Source of the DNA: Armatimonadota bacterium
GTDB taxonomy: Bacteria; Armatimonadota; SYMT01
Length of the DNA: 64,000 bases
Assembly (NCBI GenBank): GCA_046292385.1
Contig: JBKBRF010000001.1
Coordinates: 31,305 to 95,304 of the forward strand
Reading direction: 5' to 3'
Shown: piece after piece, positions 7,420 to 64,000 of the stretch
How the letters are laid out: each line of letters begins with the position of its first letter
Position numbering within the stretch: the stretch's first letter is position 1
The notes under the pieces: generated by a model
Told to the model about the DNA's origin: nothing
Databases searched by the model: none
The model's input: only the letters and a program-made list of their open reading frames with translations
Position numbers and translations under genes: made by a program

Positions 7420-8202
7420 TCACGCAAGGCGTTGTTCGGCCGGTAATACGCCGGGTCTGCTGCCGGGGAGCCGCAGGCAGCGAGCTAGCCGCAGCGGCGA
7501 TTCCACCGCCAGCGCACCCACGTAGCCGGGGCCGAGGTTCAGCGTCTGGAGCGACCACCGGGAAGGCGCATCAGGGGCGCTTGCACACTGCAGGAGCGCG
7601 GCCGGCTCGTCGGGTGCCACGGAGACCGAAAAGGCGGCCAGCTCTCGGGAGAGGCCGTCTCCCCGCGCCTTGACGTAGGCCTCCTTGCGCGTCCAGCAGT
7701 GGAAAAAGGCGAGCCGGCGTGTCTCCGCGGGAAGTGCTCGGATCGCCGCCGCCTCTGCGGGGGAGAAGTAGCGGTCGGCCAGTTCCTGGTAGGAAAGCTC
7801 GGGCCGGACCTGCTCCACGTCCACCCCCACCGCCCGGCCTCGCGTGAGCGCGATCAGGCCCAGGTCGCCCGAGTGGCTTACGTTGAAGCGGAGGTCGATC
7901 TCTCCCGGGCAGCCCTCCAGCTCCGGCTTTCCGAACGGTCCGTACCGGAAGCGCAGGGTCTCCGGTGCGAGATCCACATACCGGGCCAGGAGGAGGCGCA
8001 GGGTGCCGCGGACGGTGAGATACCGGTGCCGGTCTCTCGCGAAGTGATACCGTCCGGCCCGCTCTCGCTCGTCCGGGGAAAGGACGGCCGCCAGCTCCGG
8101 CGCCGGGGCGTCTTCAGGGATCGCTACCCGCCAGACGAGGACCTCGTTCTCCAAAAGCTCCGGCGGCTCACCGCTCGGCTCCCACGGGATCCCGCCGCTC
8201 AT
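7420..8202 (-). CDS. Sfp/HetI-type 4'-phosphopantetheinyl transferase
   Basis: GKPEL, FNVSHSG, VGVDVE, WTRKEAYVKARGDGL motifs. Confidence 0.95.
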   Translation of the reverse strand: MSGGIPWEPSGEPPELLENEVLVWRVAIPEDAPAPELAAVLSPDERERAGRYHFARDRHRYLTVRGTLRLLLARYVDLAPETLRFRYGPFGKPELEGCPGEIDLRFNVSHSGDLGLIALTRGRAVGVDVEQVRPELSYQELADRYFSPAEAAAIRALPAETRRLAFFHCWTRKEAYVKARGDGLSRELAAFSVSVAPDEPAALLQCASAPDAPSRWSLQTLNLGPGYVGALAVESPLRLARCLRLPGSRPGVLPAEQRLA

Positions 8203-9434
8203 GTCCCGCAGGCCGCTCGCAGCCGCCGCAGCGCCTCCGCGCTCAGGGCCGCGGCTTCTCCCGCCCTCGCCCAGGTGCTCGGAACGTTGAGCATCCAGGA
8301 GAGGCGGTCGCGGTAGGTGACCAGGGAGAGCACCGGACTGTCTACGCGGACCGAGCCCGCTACCCGGATCGTCTCTACCGCCACCGGCCCGATGGCGGGC
8401 GGGAGGTCCACGCGGCCGAGGTTCGAGACGGAGAGGGCCGCCGGCTCCTCCTGTGGAGGCGTGTTGGTGTAGACGGCGCGGACCGACTGCAGCAGCGCGT
8501 CGTACGGCTCGCCGCGTGCGAGGGAGGAGTCCAGCTCGGCGCGGACCTGCCGGGCCAGGTCCCAGAACGGGGCTCCCCCGCCGGCAGCGTGGGTGGTGGT
8601 CACCTGAGAGACGCAGAGCCCGGGGTCGTCCGTGAATGCAGGCTCCACGCGCTCCCGCAAGCTAACGATGTGCCGGCAGCGGGTGGGATCCGGCTCCCCC
8701 TCCGCGAGCGCCAGGAGCCCCGCGGCGCACGCCGCGCCGTGCACGGTCGTCCCCTCCGCCCGGCAGCGAGTGACGATCGCCGACGTGACCTCCGGCGGGA
8801 GTAACTGCTGGTGAACCCGGGTGGGGCCGACGGCAGGCAGGTGCGCCGCCAGCTGCTCGGCGCTCCAGCCCGCCAGCCGCCGGGTCGTCTCGCGGCTCCA
8901 CCACGCGCCCAGCTGCTCCGCCCCGTCCGGGGAGCCGAAGGCGTCCGGGGGCACCAGCTCTTCGAACGCCGGGGGCTCCGGCCGGGGCGGGAGTGAGGCG
9001 CCGGAGAGCAGCGAGAGCAGGTCGCGGAGCAGCATGACGCTCGCTCCGCCGTCCGCCGCGAGGTGCGAGAAGCTGAGGAGCAGGTCGCTGGTCCCCTCAC
9101 CCGGGAGCAGCGCCGCGCGCCAGAGCGGCCCGGTGAGGAGCGGGACGGGGGTCGAAAGCTCCTCCTGAAAGAGCGCCGGCCAATGATCCTCGCCGTCGCG
9201 GGAGACAATGCGGAGCGGGATCTCCAGGTTCTCGGCCGGCGCGAACCGCACGCGTCCCTCCTGGACTACCCGGGACCGCAAGACGGGGTGCCGGTCTCCC
9301 AGCCGGGACAGGGCGGTCGCCAGCGCCGCACCGTCTATCTCTCCACGCAGGCGCGCGGCGAGTACCGTGTTGAACGCCCCTCGCTGCTCGAAGAGCCAGT
9401 AGGCGTACTCCTCCGGCCCGAGAAGGCGGTTCAC
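8199..9434 (-). CDS. Stand-alone condensation-like / PapA5-type acyltransferase
   Basis: RHPVLRS, PLWRAALL, SHLAADG (HxxxDG), CRAEGTTV, VSNLGRV; translationally coupled to neighbours. Confidence 0.8.
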   Translation of the reverse strand: MNRLLGPEEYAYWLFEQRGAFNTVLAARLRGEIDGAALATALSRLGDRHPVLRSRVVQEGRVRFAPAENLEIPLRIVSRDGEDHWPALFQEELSTPVPLLTGPLWRAALLPGEGTSDLLLSFSHLAADGGASVMLLRDLLSLLSGASLPPRPEPPAFEELVPPDAFGSPDGAEQLGAWWSRETTRRLAGWSAEQLAAHLPAVGPTRVHQQLLPPEVTSAIVTRCRAEGTTVHGAACAAGLLALAEGEPDPTRCRHIVSLRERVEPAFTDDPGLCVSQVTTTHAAGGGAPFWDLARQVRAELDSSLARGEPYDALLQSVRAVYTNTPPQEEPAALSVSNLGRVDLPPAIGPVAVETIRVAGSVRVDSPVLSLVTYRDRLSWMLNVPSTWARAGEAAALSAEALRRLRAACGT

Positions 9435-10681
9435 GAGGCGCCTCCCGTCTCCACTTCCAGGCGATGGAGCCCCCGAACGATGATGCTCTGCTGCCGTTCG
9501 AAGCCCCGCAGCACCATCCGCGGGAGCCGCTCCAGCAAGATTTGGAGCGCGATCTGCGCCTCGAGCCGGCCCAGGCGCAGCCCGACGCAGGTGTGCAGCC
9601 CGTGTCCGAACGCCAGGTGCCGGGATGGCGGCCGGGTGATGTCAAAGCGATCGGGATCGAGGAAAACGGCCGGGTCCCGGTTCGCCGCACCCAGGCCGAA
9701 CGCTACTACCTGCCCGCGCCGGATCGCGGCGCCGGCGATCTCCGCGTCGTCCAGCGCATACCGGAACGCAATCTGCTGGGGGCTCTCGAAGCGCAGGATC
9801 TCCTCCACGGCGGCCTGCAGGAGCGCCGGCTCCCGCCGCAGCCGCCGGAGCTGGTCCGGGTGCTGGAGCAGCGCCAGGACCCCGTTTCCGAGCGTATGGG
9901 TGGTCGCTTCGTGGCCGGCGTAAAGCAGCAGCACGCAGTTGGCGGCCAGCTCGTCGGTGGTCAGCCGCTGCTCTCCATCCCGCGCTGCGATCAGGGCGCC
10001 GAGCAGGTTGTCCCGCGGGGAGCGGGTCTGCTCCGCGGCGAGGGCGCGGAAGTAGTCGAGGAAGAAGGTGGTGATCTTGGCCGCGCGCCGGAGGTGCTCG
10101 TCGGTGCGGGTCAGGTCGAGAGCCAGTATCACCTGGCGGAACAGCTCGCGCAGGCGCGGGTAGTCGGTCTCCGGCACGCCGAGCAGCTCGCTCACCAGCA
10201 GGAGCGGCAGCGGGTAGGCGAAGTCGCCGATCAGGTCGAGCGTCTCCCGGCCATCCGCGGCATCGAGGAGCTGGTGCGAGAGCGCCGCAATCCGCGGCCG
10301 GACGCGTTCCAGCACGGTCGCATCGAGCGCGCGGGAGACGAGGCGCCGGAGCCGGCCGTGGTCCGGCGGGTCCTTGAAGAGCATCCAGTGCGCCAGCATC
10401 TCGGTGAGCGGGCGGTGCTCGGGCGGAGTCGGGGGCAGGGAGCCGGGCGGGAGGGCCCGCTCCACCTCTCGCCCGAACTGGGGCGCCTTCAGCCCGGCGA
10501 CCACGTCCGCGTGCCGCGAGACGAACCAGAACCCCCAGAAGCCGGGCACCGGCGCGGCGGCCCACGCTGCCGGCGCCTCCGCCTGCAGGCGCCGGTAGGT
10601 GGCGTACGGGTCCTCCCGGAACTCCGGGGAGAGCGGGTGGAAGCTGGCGCGGGTGCCGGCAGGCGAGGACGGAGCGCTCAT
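9431..10681 (-). CDS. Cytochrome P450 (CYP107/BioI-like)
   Basis: DPPDHGRLR, AGHEATT I-helix, EEILR (ExxR), AANRDP, FGHGLHTCVG heme ligand. Confidence 0.96.
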   Translation of the reverse strand: MSAPSSPAGTRASFHPLSPEFREDPYATYRRLQAEAPAAWAAAPVPGFWGFWFVSRHADVVAGLKAPQFGREVERALPPGSLPPTPPEHRPLTEMLAHWMLFKDPPDHGRLRRLVSRALDATVLERVRPRIAALSHQLLDAADGRETLDLIGDFAYPLPLLLVSELLGVPETDYPRLRELFRQVILALDLTRTDEHLRRAAKITTFFLDYFRALAAEQTRSPRDNLLGALIAARDGEQRLTTDELAANCVLLLYAGHEATTHTLGNGVLALLQHPDQLRRLRREPALLQAAVEEILRFESPQQIAFRYALDDAEIAGAAIRRGQVVAFGLGAANRDPAVFLDPDRFDITRPPSRHLAFGHGLHTCVGLRLGRLEAQIALQILLERLPRMVLRGFERQQSIIVRGLHRLEVETGGAS

Positions 10682-63900: not shown

Positions 63901-63999
63901 GCTCGGGCCCTTCAGGTTCAGGGCGTAGGCCAGGCGGCCGGAGGCGAAGCTGTGGAAGTTGCCGGCGATCTCGTCCAGGCTCGGCGTGCCGCCCGAGGC
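60958..63999 (-). CDS. PKS, 5'-truncated by window edge: ...KS-[no AT]-KR-ACP
   Basis: Frame open to the edge; DAACASS, HGTGT, LGHCEAAAG; no AT or DH; GGLGGLG; GLDSL. Confidence 0.93.
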   Translation of the reverse strand, partial: ASGGTPSLDEIAGNFHSFASGRLAYALNLKGPSMVVDAACASSLAAVHLACASLQAGECRTALAGAVNLILLPHVAQAMANAGLLSPSGACRTFDAAADGFVRGEGCGMLVLKRLSDAVEAGDPVLAVVLGGAVAQGGRGNGLTSPNGRAQAAVIRSALAAANVAPEAVGYVEAHGTGTRLGDAIEVEAVSEVLGGSRKQPLLLGAVKTQLGHCEAAAGMAGLIKAVTAIREGMIPGNLHQSRLNPDLEPLPPALEIPAAPRAWDDPVRIAGVSAFGMNGTNAHLILGPAPSLPEPPGGDGPGVLPISAHSETALRALVTRCVERLREDCDWHDVCYSASVGRRHFEHRLAVVAKDAAGAREALRAYLCGRPAPGVVSSAAPPEESAPGAAGIAYGYVHGQAIDWASHYPAPRRRLSLPSYPFQRQRYWFDHPVPLPADPQDSAAELAHRIEWCPLRLRPGALPPGPWLLISDRKLGPELAAGLRARGAECVLHLPDESGERLPDRLQLGERRNVVYLAALDATPLSNASAASLARERRRLLGGLADLLRAVASAPGSTRLWIVTGGAEDGEALQSSLQGAAAALRAEHPELRCSLIDLDPAAREAGTLLAELLTEEPQERVALRGSERLVPRIVRLPLPPGPSRITADATYLLTGGLGGLGLAAAERLAALGARHLALVTRTEREHPTLHRLREQGVQVRVFGADLADEQAVAGVLAEIRDGMPPLRGIFHAAGALSDGLLARTSAEQIEAVFSGKAEGAWHLHRLTLALELDFFVLYSSATPYLGLPGAGIYAAANAFLDGLARHRHSLGLPALSIGWGAWEGTGMAAADDRRGAQWAAHGLRPFSARQGLAALQGLLQSDLPHALVLAPGWTAENSAAEAASACPPAAELVTVVREVLREVLRLAGDARLDETTPLGELGLDSLGAVELRDALSRRLARELPVTLAFNHPWIAAVVQFLGEQDGGCLPVSRRTDSHSLADDLEQLSEAEAEALLERKLAELDRRPSRGGA

Positions 64000-64000
64000 G

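What the first reader, a model, noticed from the sequence alone, without database searches (positions are those of the whole stretch)
7420..64000. Apparently undescribed thiazole/thiazoline polyketide assembly line with a readable product
Seen: collinear modules KR | oMT,cMT,KR | DH,KR | Cy-A(Cys)-Ox | DH,cMT,ER,KR | DH,cMT,KR | DH,ER,KR | DH,cMT,KR | DH,cMT,KR | Cy-A(Cys)-MT | TE. Inference by collinearity: R-CH(OH)-CH2-CH(OMe)-CH(Me)-CH=CH-thiazole-CH2-CH(Me)-CH=C(Me)-CH2-CH2-CH=C(Me)-CH=C(Me)-(methyl)thiazoline-CO-, released as acid or macrolactone, then oxidised and acylated. The ER of the cMT module has Val (LDLVPG) where the other ER has Tyr (LGAYPG), the position linked to methyl stereochemistry. 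I do not recognise this order as a known cluster; the starter and upstream modules are outside the window.
Basis: partly seen in the sequence, partly recalled or inferred. Interest (0 to 1): 0.85.

Follow-up and report, generated by a model that had tools for sequence, protein, structure and literature searches.

The report
Orphan thiazole polyketide gene cluster
A 72-kb gene cluster in an uncultured bacterium encodes a giant enzyme assembly line that should build a heavily methylated, sulfur-containing chain unlike any described compound; it is a new example of a well-known kind of pathway.

Summary
The line continues outside the window. In all there are nine co-directional synthase genes with 11 PKS and 2 cysteine-heterocyclising NRPS modules, flanked by a type II thioesterase upstream and by a P450, a PapA5-like acyltransferase and a PPTase downstream (G000:C1:38724-110817).

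The 98%-complete genome holds only one free AT, of FabD size.

I found no close relative. The best matches were 56% identity (thiazole module) and 45% (a cMT module) among 5.8 billion proteins, at most 55% in 185,579 species genomes, and at most 53% in 400 genomes of the same phylum. MIBiG/antiSMASH could not be run.

The flanks look Armatimonadota-like. GC3, read depth and a bridging contig tie the cluster to this genome.

Verdict: a genuine orphan hybrid PKS-NRPS cluster, a new member of a known kind. The predicted product is plausible but unproven. This scan had not reported it before on other DNA.

The parts
7420..8202 (-). Sfp/HetI-type 4'-phosphopantetheinyl transferase (260 aa), last gene of the cluster
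   Evidence: Pfam ACPS 4.4e-20 and AASDHPPT_N. NCBIfam HetI model 177 bits, below its 370-bit cut-off.
8199..9434 (-). Stand-alone PapA5-like condensation-fold acyltransferase (411 aa)
   Evidence: Pfam PapA_C 72.4 bits (cut-off 30) and Condensation. PDB 8s6l, phthiocerol dimycocerosyl transferase, E 1.6e-23. Atlas feature and structure neighbours are PapA_C clusters, TM 0.87. Motif SHLAADG present.
9431..10681 (-). Cytochrome P450 (416 aa)
   Evidence: Pfam p450 4.1e-31. Heme loop FGHGLHTCVG and EILR present.
10678..21474 (-). Protein I (3598 aa): KS-DH-cMT-KR-ACP (AT-less), then Cy-A(embedded cMT)-PCP-TE
   Evidence: The embedded MT is nearest to CurJ cMT. A-domain and Cy motifs and TE GHSFG.
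21500..28018 (-). Protein H (2172 aa by the database's gene call; the longest ORF starts at 28105): KS-AT-DH-cMT-KR-ACP
   Evidence: AT motif HAFH. P0121 is 2172 aa.
28005..39365 (-). Protein G (3786 aa by the database's gene call): KS-AT-DH-cMT-KR-ACP, then KS-DH-ER-KR-ACP (second module AT-less)
   Evidence: ER motif LGAYPG. P0134 is 3786 aa.
39370..45867 (-). Protein F (2165 aa): KS-DH-cMT-ER-KR-ACP, AT-less. Its KS is the divergent one that follows the thiazole module.
   Evidence: ER motif LDLVPG. The KS is 42-49% identical to the other ten KS domains. Several of its best hits in fetched loci (L095, L066, L157, L110, L010) lie directly after a Cy-A-Ox module (coordinates).
45872..49987 (-). 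Protein E (1371 aa): TubC_N docking, then Cy-A(embedded Ox)-PCP; the thiazole-forming module
   Evidence: Condensation, AMP-binding, Nitroreductase at 1023-1200, PP-binding, TubC_N. Motifs.
49984..54393 (-). Protein D (1469 aa): KS-DH-KR-ACP, AT-less
54390..61052 (-). Protein C (2220 aa as the longest ORF; the true start may be later because it overlaps B by 95 nt): KS-AT-oMT-cMT-KR-ACP
   Evidence: The oMT matches StiE, E 2.1e-77. AT motif GAYH. Alternative starts at codons 45 and 76.
60958..64000 (-). C-terminal part of protein B (2460 aa; the gene runs to window-equivalent 68340): module B2 KS-KR-ACP, AT-less
13304..14508 (.). Copy 1 of an exact 1205-nt repeat: A-domain core of protein I, residues 2323-2724
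   Evidence: Contig depth in the probable source run X1 is 87-99 here against 51-55 beside it.
47319..48523 (.). Copy 2 of the exact 1205-nt repeat: A-domain core of protein E, residues 489-890

Best explanation
This is an intact, host-resident but orphan hybrid type I PKS-NRPS assembly line of 13 modules on nine co-directional proteins, carried by an uncultured bacterium whose flanking genes look Armatimonadota-like.

Shown: the domain order, and the catalytic motifs that were examined (listed under evidence).

Inferred by collinearity: a short starter on the N-terminal ACP of protein A is extended by A1 (keto, C-methyl), A2 (saturated), B1 (no KR, so probably keto) and B2 (hydroxyl). C adds a methoxy and a C-methyl, and D an E-olefin. 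E adds cysteine and makes a thiazole (Cy, then the FMN oxidase inserted in the A domain). F, G1, G2, H and I1 build CH2-CH(Me)-CH=C(Me)-CH2-CH2-CH=C(Me)-CH=C(Me). The last module adds a second cysteine, cyclises it to a thiazoline and C-methylates it with a PKS-type methyltransferase. The TE then releases an acid, or a macrolactone onto the B2 hydroxyl, which would be a 24-membered ring.

All five embedded ATs are or look malonyl-type, so every methyl branch comes from SAM. The six AT-less modules must be malonylated in trans, either by the genome's single FabD-like AT or by the embedded ATs of neighbouring modules. P450 hydroxylation or epoxidation and PapA5-like ester formation are the likely tailoring steps. 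The type II TE edits, and the adjacent RND pump may export.
For: - Domain maps.
- KS: Cys-His-His in 11 of 11.
- AT: GHSxG plus HAFH in 4 of 5, GAYH in module C.
- DH: catalytic His in 7 of 8.
- KR: all 9 carry the Asp of the LxD position.
- ER: NADPH motif in 4 of 4.
- Carrier serines in 12 of 12 ACPs and both PCPs.
- cMT: SAM motif and His/Glu in 7 of 7.
- Cy DxxxxDxxS, Cys-type A pattern, TE GHSFG.
- oMT matches StiE/StiD.
- Terminal MT is nearest to CurJ, PsoF, LovB, DisA, the citrinin PKS and AprA C-MTs, and not to the methyltransferase of an interrupted NRPS A domain; the 5wmm hit covers only the A-domain flank, query residues 1-59.
- E carries a TubC_N docking domain.
- Residency: GC3 is 0.82-0.91 in cluster genes against 0.81-0.94 in flanking genes. 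One contig of run X1 (5930-13165) bridges flank and cluster at like depth. Soil and root runs X2, X3 and X7, from three other studies, hold pieces of both flank and cluster at like low depth. The genome is 98.45% complete with 2.9% contamination.
- Orphan status.
- FabD acting as a trans-AT has precedent in barnesin (PMC13096860, passages read).
Against: - No product, transcript or protein has been seen.
- Module B1 is irregular: its DH lacks the catalytic His, there is an ER but no KR. The head of the molecule is therefore uncertain, and the module could be skipped or inactive.
- Six modules have no AT and no dedicated trans-AT was found in the cluster or the genome, so extender choice and even loading are assumed.
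- The AT of module C has an unusual GAYH motif, found in 0 of 123 AT motifs of 120 related proteins.
- The starter is unknown.
- Five KRs have His where the catalytic Tyr is expected, although this is common in cMT modules elsewhere.
- Collinearity is an assumption.
- MIBiG was not searched.
Confidence: 0.75

Rival explanations
1. The cluster is a diverged orthologue of an already characterised pathway (for example a myxobacterial or cyanobacterial thiazole polyketide), so the product is known or a close analogue.
For: The domain types are those of myxobacterial and cyanobacterial lines: TubC_N docking, StiE-type oMT, CurJ-type cMT. Distant hits include a Sorangium cellulosum PKS (Q9L8C6, 38% over 41% of the query), PuwB (36%) and a protein named McyD (36%). 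MIBiG could not be run.
Against: The best identities are 56% (E) and 45-46% (H region) in 5.8 billion proteins, at most 55% in genome contigs, and no fetched locus matches D, E, F, C and I together. I recall no described compound with this order (recall only). Two literature searches gave none (listings read).
Confidence: 0.08
2. The line is partly decayed or not collinear: B1 is a dead duplicate, some AT-less modules are skipped or stutter, and the real product (if any) is shorter than, or different from, the collinear prediction.
For: B1 is a paralogue of G2 (63% identity over KS-DH; 87.7% DNA identity over 1.49 kb) that has lost the DH His and the whole KR. Six modules lack an AT and no trans-AT gene is present. 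The AT motif in C is odd.
Against: No stop or frameshift occurs in 72 kb of coding sequence. The KS, ACP, cMT, Cy, A and TE motifs checked are intact, including those of B1. Genes abut or overlap like an operon. Near-identical sequence occurs in metagenomes of several studies.
Confidence: 0.14
3. The cluster is a binning or assembly artefact and belongs to another organism, such as a myxobacterium.
For: GC is 72-74% in the cluster against 65-69% in the flanks. The cluster was not found in 40 relatives or in a 400-genome sample of the phylum.
Against: The GC excess sits in codon positions 1 and 2; GC3 equals that of the flanks. The window and the rest of C1 are free of N across both borders. 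An X1 contig spans 5930-13165 at the same depth as the flanks. The contig is 333 kb, and the flanking MnmA has Armatimonadota-named relatives.
Confidence: 0.03

Closest known systems
Thiazole-forming Cy-A-Ox-PCP modules of myxobacterial hybrid lines (EpoB of epothilone, MtaC/MtaD of myxothiazol, TubC-type docking); names recalled, not fetched
   Same: Cy with DxxxxDxxS, a Cys-type A domain, an FMN oxidase (Pfam Nitroreductase) inserted between A8 and A10, a PCP and an N-terminal TubC_N docking domain.
   Different: No protein in the collection is more than 56% identical. The best hit named as Sorangium is 46% (P0098). The module sits mid-chain between AT-less PKS modules.
StiD/StiE beta-hydroxyl O-methyltransferase domains of the stigmatellin PKS (PDB 6ecx, 6ect, 6ecw, 6ecu)
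   Same: The oMT of module C aligns over about 300 residues at E 2.1e-77 (StiE) and 1.2e-63 (StiD). It lies in a KR-containing module, as expected for methylation of a beta-hydroxyl.
   Different: Here it is fused in one module with a cMT (KS-AT-oMT-cMT-KR-ACP), in an unrelated assembly line.
Terminal heterocyclising modules with a methyltransferase: yersiniabactin HMWP1 (Cy-MT-PCP-TE, C-methylation) and pyochelin PchF (Cy-A(MT)-PCP-TE, N-methylation); architectures recalled
   Same: Cy-A(MT)-PCP-TE has the PchF layout. The MT carries the SAM motif and the His/Glu of PKS C-MTs and is nearest to CurJ cMT, as expected for an HMWP1-like C-methylation of the thiazoline.
   Different: No thiazolinyl reductase gene was seen in the cluster. 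There is no salicylate cap. A long polyketide chain sits upstream, so there is no sign of a siderophore pathway. Neither HMWP1 nor PchF was compared directly.
Mixed cis-AT/trans-AT lines (kirromycin, enacyloxin; recalled) and FabD-served AT-less hybrids (barnesin, PMC13096860)
   Same: AT-bearing and AT-less modules occur in one line. A housekeeping FabD as the malonyl donor has precedent (passages read).
   Different: No discrete AT gene lies in or near the cluster, and only one FabD-sized AT is in the genome. The AT-less modules have cis-AT-style reductive loops (DH-cMT-ER-KR), and their KS domains are 49-76% identical to the AT-bearing ones, apart from the post-NRPS KS of F at 42-49%. They look like cis-AT modules that lost their AT.
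PapA5, phthiocerol/phthiodiolone dimycocerosyl transferase (PDB 8s6l)
   Same: Stand-alone condensation fold with a PapA_C domain and an xHxxxDG motif.
   Different: NCBIfam PapA5 scores 60.6 bits against a 396-bit cut-off, so it is a family member, not an equivalog. Donor and acceptor are unknown.

Membership tests
Modular type I PKS-NRPS hybrid assembly line | Repeated KS...ACP and C/Cy-A-PCP modules on co-directional giant genes, ending in a TE | tested here: met
   11 KS, 12 ACP, 2 Cy-A-PCP and 1 TE on nine minus-strand genes.
Modular type I PKS-NRPS hybrid assembly line | Catalytic residues of the core domains present | tested here: met
   KS Cys/His/His in 11 of 11. Carrier Ser in 14 of 14. 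Cy, A and TE motifs.
cis-AT PKS (textbook) | An AT domain in every PKS module | tested here: not met
   An AT is present in 5 of 11 PKS modules (A1, A2, C, G1, H) and absent from B1, B2, D, F, G2 and I1.
trans-AT PKS | AT-less modules throughout, plus a discrete AT gene in the cluster | tested here: not met
   Five modules carry ATs. No discrete AT lies between C1 12001 and 129000 among the ORFs scanned. The only other AT in the genome is on C13, 306 aa, 38% identical.
trans-AT PKS | KS domains of the trans-AT clades | not tested
   No reference KS phylogeny was built. Within the cluster the AT-less and AT-bearing KS domains are 49-76% identical, apart from the post-NRPS KS of F.
Thiazole-forming NRPS module (Cy-A-Ox-PCP) | Heterocyclisation domain with DxxxxDxxS in place of HHxxxDG | tested here: met
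   DLLIADAAS in E and DLLALDAAS in I.
Thiazole-forming NRPS module (Cy-A-Ox-PCP) | Cys-specific A domain | tested here: inconclusive
   [24 protein letters not shown] and the A10 Lys are present in both. That this pattern means Cys is recalled; no specificity predictor was run. The nearest named hits are L-cysteine ligase, yersiniabactin or BlmIV-type NRPSs.
Thiazole-forming NRPS module (Cy-A-Ox-PCP) | FMN-dependent oxidase domain | tested here: met
   Pfam Nitroreductase 3.9e-18 at E 1023-1200, between A8 and A10.
A characterised (MIBiG) cluster | High-identity, same-order match | tested here: not met
   At most 56% for E, at most 46% for the H region, and no same-neighbourhood locus. MIBiG itself is not available here, so this is a proxy test.
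PapA5-type acyltransferase | PapA_C/condensation fold with a catalytic His motif | tested here: met
   It falls below the NCBIfam PapA5 cut-off.
PKS C-methyltransferase (CurJ type), for the MT in the last A domain | Class I SAM fold nearest to PKS C-MTs, with the conserved His and Glu | tested here: met
   CurJ 5thy, E 9.7e-42. [12 protein letters not shown] and VEE align with the six PKS cMTs. The role of the His/Glu dyad is recalled.

The most novel reading that the evidence does not exclude
The cluster makes a scaffold with no described relative: a roughly C38-39 N2S2 polyene, possibly a 24-membered macrolactone, with a mid-chain thiazole and a terminal 4-methylthiazoline. It would be the first assembly-line metabolite assigned to Armatimonadota. 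It would also be built by a natural mosaic PKS in which the five embedded ATs, which alternate with one or two AT-less modules along the line, load their neighbours' ACPs without any dedicated trans-AT.
Probability: 0.25. Interest if true: 0.65.

Novelty: new member of a known kind. Interest (0 to 1): 0.45.

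Why it matters
Surveys report few biosynthetic clusters in Armatimonadota; one Antarctic soil study found 4 (PMC8692599, passages read). My literature search found no characterised polyketide for the phylum (listing read). A complete, apparently intact 72-kb line with a largely readable product is a concrete target for heterologous expression and could yield a new thiazole/thiazoline polyene. 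The regular mix of AT-bearing and AT-less modules without a trans-AT gene is a natural test case for how AT-less modules are supplied, which bears on PKS engineering. Even so, orphan hybrid clusters in metagenome genomes are very common, so this is a lead for natural-product discovery and not a new biological principle.

Tried and rejected
- Closest full-length homologue of E: I scanned metagenome contigs for the contig of P0043 (56% identity). It was not returned; all 78 loci were 46-58% identical to P0043.
- Synteny in same-family relatives: only the WYL regulator has homologues (61% in G006, 60% in G005). The ABC1 kinase was not found with this query in 5 relatives. The fetched neighbourhoods share nothing else. 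No insertion site could be defined.
- Genomic-island signature at tRNA-Ser: no copy of any 14-mer of the tRNA region occurs elsewhere on C1, and no integrase turned up among the flank ORFs scanned.
- Donor lineage: the best KS and NRPS hits come from MAGs named Acidobacteriota, Pseudomonadota and Nannocystaceae at 50-63%. There is no clear donor, and no tree was built.
- One search ran without a cMT profile and mislabelled every module as lacking a cMT. It was redone correctly.
I re-sent it from position 300, as the tool's message advised.
- Contigs of runs X2, X3 and X7 do not bridge the flank-cluster border. Their cover is fragmentary and shows nothing about absence.
- Literature searches for the His-type KR and for mixed cis/trans lines gave no directly relevant description (listings only).
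- No structure prediction or complex prediction was run; none was needed for the verdict. Supplementary files were not consulted.

Full report
**What is there.** The window is G000:C1:31305-95304 and contains no N. From 7420 to its right end it is filled by large minus-strand ORFs that abut or overlap by a few bases. Pfam scans and a phmmer map seeded with the cluster's own domains give this order, in the direction of transcription:
- B2: KS-KR-ACP (cut by the window edge)
- C: KS-AT-oMT-cMT-KR-ACP
- D: KS-DH-KR-ACP
- E: Cy-A-Ox-PCP
- F: KS-DH-cMT-ER-KR-ACP
- G: KS-AT-DH-cMT-KR-ACP, then KS-DH-ER-KR-ACP
- H: KS-AT-DH-cMT-KR-ACP
- I: KS-DH-cMT-KR-ACP, then Cy-A(MT)-PCP-TE
- then a P450, a PapA_C/Condensation protein and a PPTase

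**The rest of the line.** With the genome laid out and two further loci fetched, the line continues upstream.
- Protein B (2460 aa) starts with an irregular module, KS-DH-ER-ACP.
- Protein A (3480 aa) reads ACP-KS-AT-cMT-ACP, then KS-AT-DH-ER-KR-ACP.
- A type II thioesterase gene lies just upstream, followed by an ABC1 kinase and an AcrB/HlyD-type pump.
- The cluster therefore spans C1 38724-110817, about 72 kb, with 11 PKS modules, 2 NRPS modules and 7 + 1 methyltransferase domains.
- GC is 72-74% inside and 65-69% outside, with sharp edges.

**Are the domains alive?**
- All 11 KS domains keep Cys-His-His.
- The five ATs keep GHSxG. Four read HAFH, which I recall as the malonyl pattern. Module C reads GAYH, a motif found in 0 of 123 AT motifs in 120 related proteins.
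- Seven of eight DH domains keep the catalytic His. B1 does not, and it also has Glu for the downstream Asp.
- All nine KRs carry the Asp of the LxD position, which I recall as marking the B type.
- All 12 ACPs and both PCPs keep the serine.
- All six PKS cMTs and the MT inside the last A domain share the SAM motif and a His and a Glu in aligned positions.
- Both Cy domains read DxxxxDxxS. Both A domains carry FDLSVYD / WNSVP / [12 protein letters not shown] / Lys. The TE reads GHSFG.
- The oMT matches the solved StiE and StiD O-MT domains (E 2.1e-77 and 1.2e-63).
- The MT of the last module matches the CurJ C-MT (E 9.7e-42), then the C-MTs of PsoF, LovB, DisA, the citrinin PKS and AprA. The interrupted NRPS A domain 5wmm matches only the flanking A-domain residues. 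This favours C-methylation, giving a 4-methylthiazoline. I saw no thiazoline reductase gene in the cluster.

Only A1, A2, C, G1 and H have an AT. B1, B2, D, F, G2 and I1 keep the KS-AT linker but lack the AT itself.
- A tblastn search of the whole 7.04-Mb genome (98.45% complete) with an AT domain finds the five cluster ATs and one other. That one is a 306-aa FabD-sized protein on C13, 38% identical, next to SpoIIE and zf-HC2 genes.
- No discrete AT lies among the flank ORFs scanned.
- The AT-less modules have cis-AT-style reductive loops. Their KS domains are 49-76% identical to the AT-bearing ones, apart from the post-NRPS KS of F at 42-49%.
- I therefore read them as cis-AT modules that lost their AT. 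They would be served in trans either by FabD, for which barnesin is a precedent (PMC13096860, passages read), or by neighbouring embedded ATs.
- Each AT-bearing module or pair is followed by one or two AT-less PKS modules; the NRPS module E lies between D and F. This is a pattern, not evidence.
- The extender units of these six modules cannot be read from the sequence; malonyl is assumed.

**Product.**
- With the upstream modules, R would be a short starter plus C(=O)-CH(Me)-CH2-CH2-C(=O)-CH2-. This holds only if B1 elongates and leaves its keto group.
- If the TE lactonises onto the B2 hydroxyl, the ring has 24 members by my count.
- Every methyl branch would come from SAM: 7 in the window and 8-9 in all.
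- The Val in F's ER would predict one methyl configuration by the Tyr/Val rule I recall from actinomycete cis-AT PKSs. That rule is untested for cMT modules.
- The P450 has an intact heme loop.
- The PapA5-like protein is supported by Pfam, PDB 8s6l and Atlas neighbours, and carries SHLAADG. Its NCBIfam PapA5 score is far below the cut-off.
- 'Oxidised and acylated' is a fair guess for these two enzymes, but donor, acceptor and site are unknown.

**Is it known?**
- Protein E against 5.8 billion proteins: the best non-self hit over the full length is P0043, at 56% identity from a metagenome. Named hits from Sorangium, Streptomyces, Micromonospora, Fischerella and others are 43-53%.
- The DH-cMT-KR-ACP part of H: the best hit is 45% at full coverage and 46% at partial coverage. 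Distant hits include a Sorangium PKS, PuwB and a protein named McyD.
- Genome contigs (185,579 species): 675 of 676 candidate stretches are relatives. The 78 kept loci are 35-55% identical.
- tblastn of nine pieces of the cluster against the 161 fetched loci (2.98 Mb) found no locus that matches D, E, F, C and I together. The best identities were KS 63%, E 50%, the reductive loops 35-41% and P450 48%.
- Same-phylum genomes: among the 40 nearest relatives the best match to E is 35%. In an even sample of 400, 33 have a KS match at E <= 1e-60, the best at 53%.
- Literature searches for Armatimonadota PKS clusters and for thiazole/thiazoline polyketides with cMT and oMT returned nothing that fits (listings read).
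- MIBiG and antiSMASH are not available here, so 'undescribed' rests on these proxies.
- The scan's own notes hold nothing similar on other DNA.

**Whose cluster is it?**
- Earlier notes of this scan call the genome an uncultured Armatimonadota. I checked this only in part. The flanking MnmA (window 2531-3628) has many relatives at 70-78%. Of the 7 hits that carry an organism name, 6 are Armatimonadetes/Armatimonadota MAGs (53-71%) and 1 is an Actinomycetota MAG (75%).
- The cluster's extra GC lies in codon positions 1 and 2. GC3 is 0.82-0.91 in the cluster and 0.81-0.94 in nine flanking genes. That argues against a recent transfer or a chimera.
- In run X1, the probable source and so not independent, one contig spans 5930-13165 from the WYL gene into protein I. 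Its depth is 55, against 61-63 on the flank.
- Runs X2 (soil), X3 (soil) and X7 (root), from three other studies, hold pieces of both flank and cluster at 95-100% identity and like low depth. None bridges the border.

**Internal history.**
- The cores of the two A domains (E 489-890, I 2323-2724) are identical over 1205 nt in the assembly. Identity falls to 94-96% and then 64-81% beside this stretch.
- In X1 the contigs covering this stretch have depth 87-99, about twice that of their neighbours. One of them differs from the window at 4 places. Two copies are therefore real, but their perfect identity is not independently shown. I read this as gene conversion.
- B1 and G2 share 87.7% DNA identity over 1.49 kb and 63% protein identity over KS-DH. 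B1 looks like a duplicate of G2 that lost its DH His and its KR.

**Verdict.** This is a real, apparently intact, host-resident orphan hybrid PKS-NRPS cluster with no close relative in the collections I could search. It is a new member of a known kind. Its unusual points are the phylum, the AT mosaic without a trans-AT gene, and the KR-less DH-ER module. Interest is moderate, because orphan assembly lines are common in metagenome genomes and nothing here requires new biochemistry.

Noticed in passing
window 22040-22729 (KR of H); also the KRs of C, F, G1 and I1: The five KRs that share a module with a cMT have His where the catalytic Tyr of YAAAN is expected (..QANHAAAN..). The four KRs without a cMT have Tyr. 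In 117 related proteins, KRs in cMT modules are 78 His, 18 Tyr and 13 unresolved; KRs in modules without a cMT are 54 Tyr, 1 His and 1 unresolved. The His aligns with the Tyr of the solved AmphB KR. One literature search found no description of this (listing only).
   Followed up: partly
window 13304-14508 and 47319-48523: An exact 1205-nt repeat covers the cores of the two Cys-activating A domains, flanked by sequence that decays to 64-81% identity. Depth is about double here in the probable source run. This looks like gene conversion within the cluster.
   Followed up: yes
G000:C1:95700-99644 (outside the window; L001) and window 31478-32951: Module B1 reads KS-DH-ER-ACP with no KR and no psi-KR, and its DH lacks the catalytic His. 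Its KS-DH part is a paralogue of module G2 (87.7% DNA identity over 1.49 kb).
   Followed up: partly
window 58450-59280 (AT of module C): The specificity motif reads GAYH, not HAFH or YASH. It occurs in none of 123 AT motifs in 120 related proteins; the nearest are QAYH (2) and QGYH (1). The substrate is unknown.
   Followed up: partly
window 5870-5957: A tRNA-Ser(GCT) lies 1.5 kb from the cluster's last gene, with only a WYL regulator gene between them. No att-like repeat of the tRNA region occurs elsewhere on C1. A depth spike in bin 5556-6212 in all four runs coincides with it.
   Followed up: partly
window 1-139: A tandem array of the 7-nt unit CTAAAGG (19.9 copies, 97% matches) lies directly after a 100-N scaffold gap at C1 31205-31304. 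Earlier notes describe similar 7-base tracts elsewhere in this genome.
   Followed up: no
window 6316-7347; L166 (G006:C47) 10059-11285: The WYL/WCX regulator beside the cluster has a 61%-identical homologue in a same-family genome. That homologue also lies next to an NRPS gene (33% identical to E's A domain), although nothing else is shared between the two neighbourhoods.
   Followed up: partly
L069 (MAG titled Falsiroseomonas sp.) 3205-17606: One fetched locus combines a P450 48% identical to the cluster's, a methyltransferase stretch 51% identical to part of C's oMT-cMT region, and a weak PapA-like hit (26%), all next to a Cy-A-Ox module. It may be a distantly related tailoring set.
   Followed up: no
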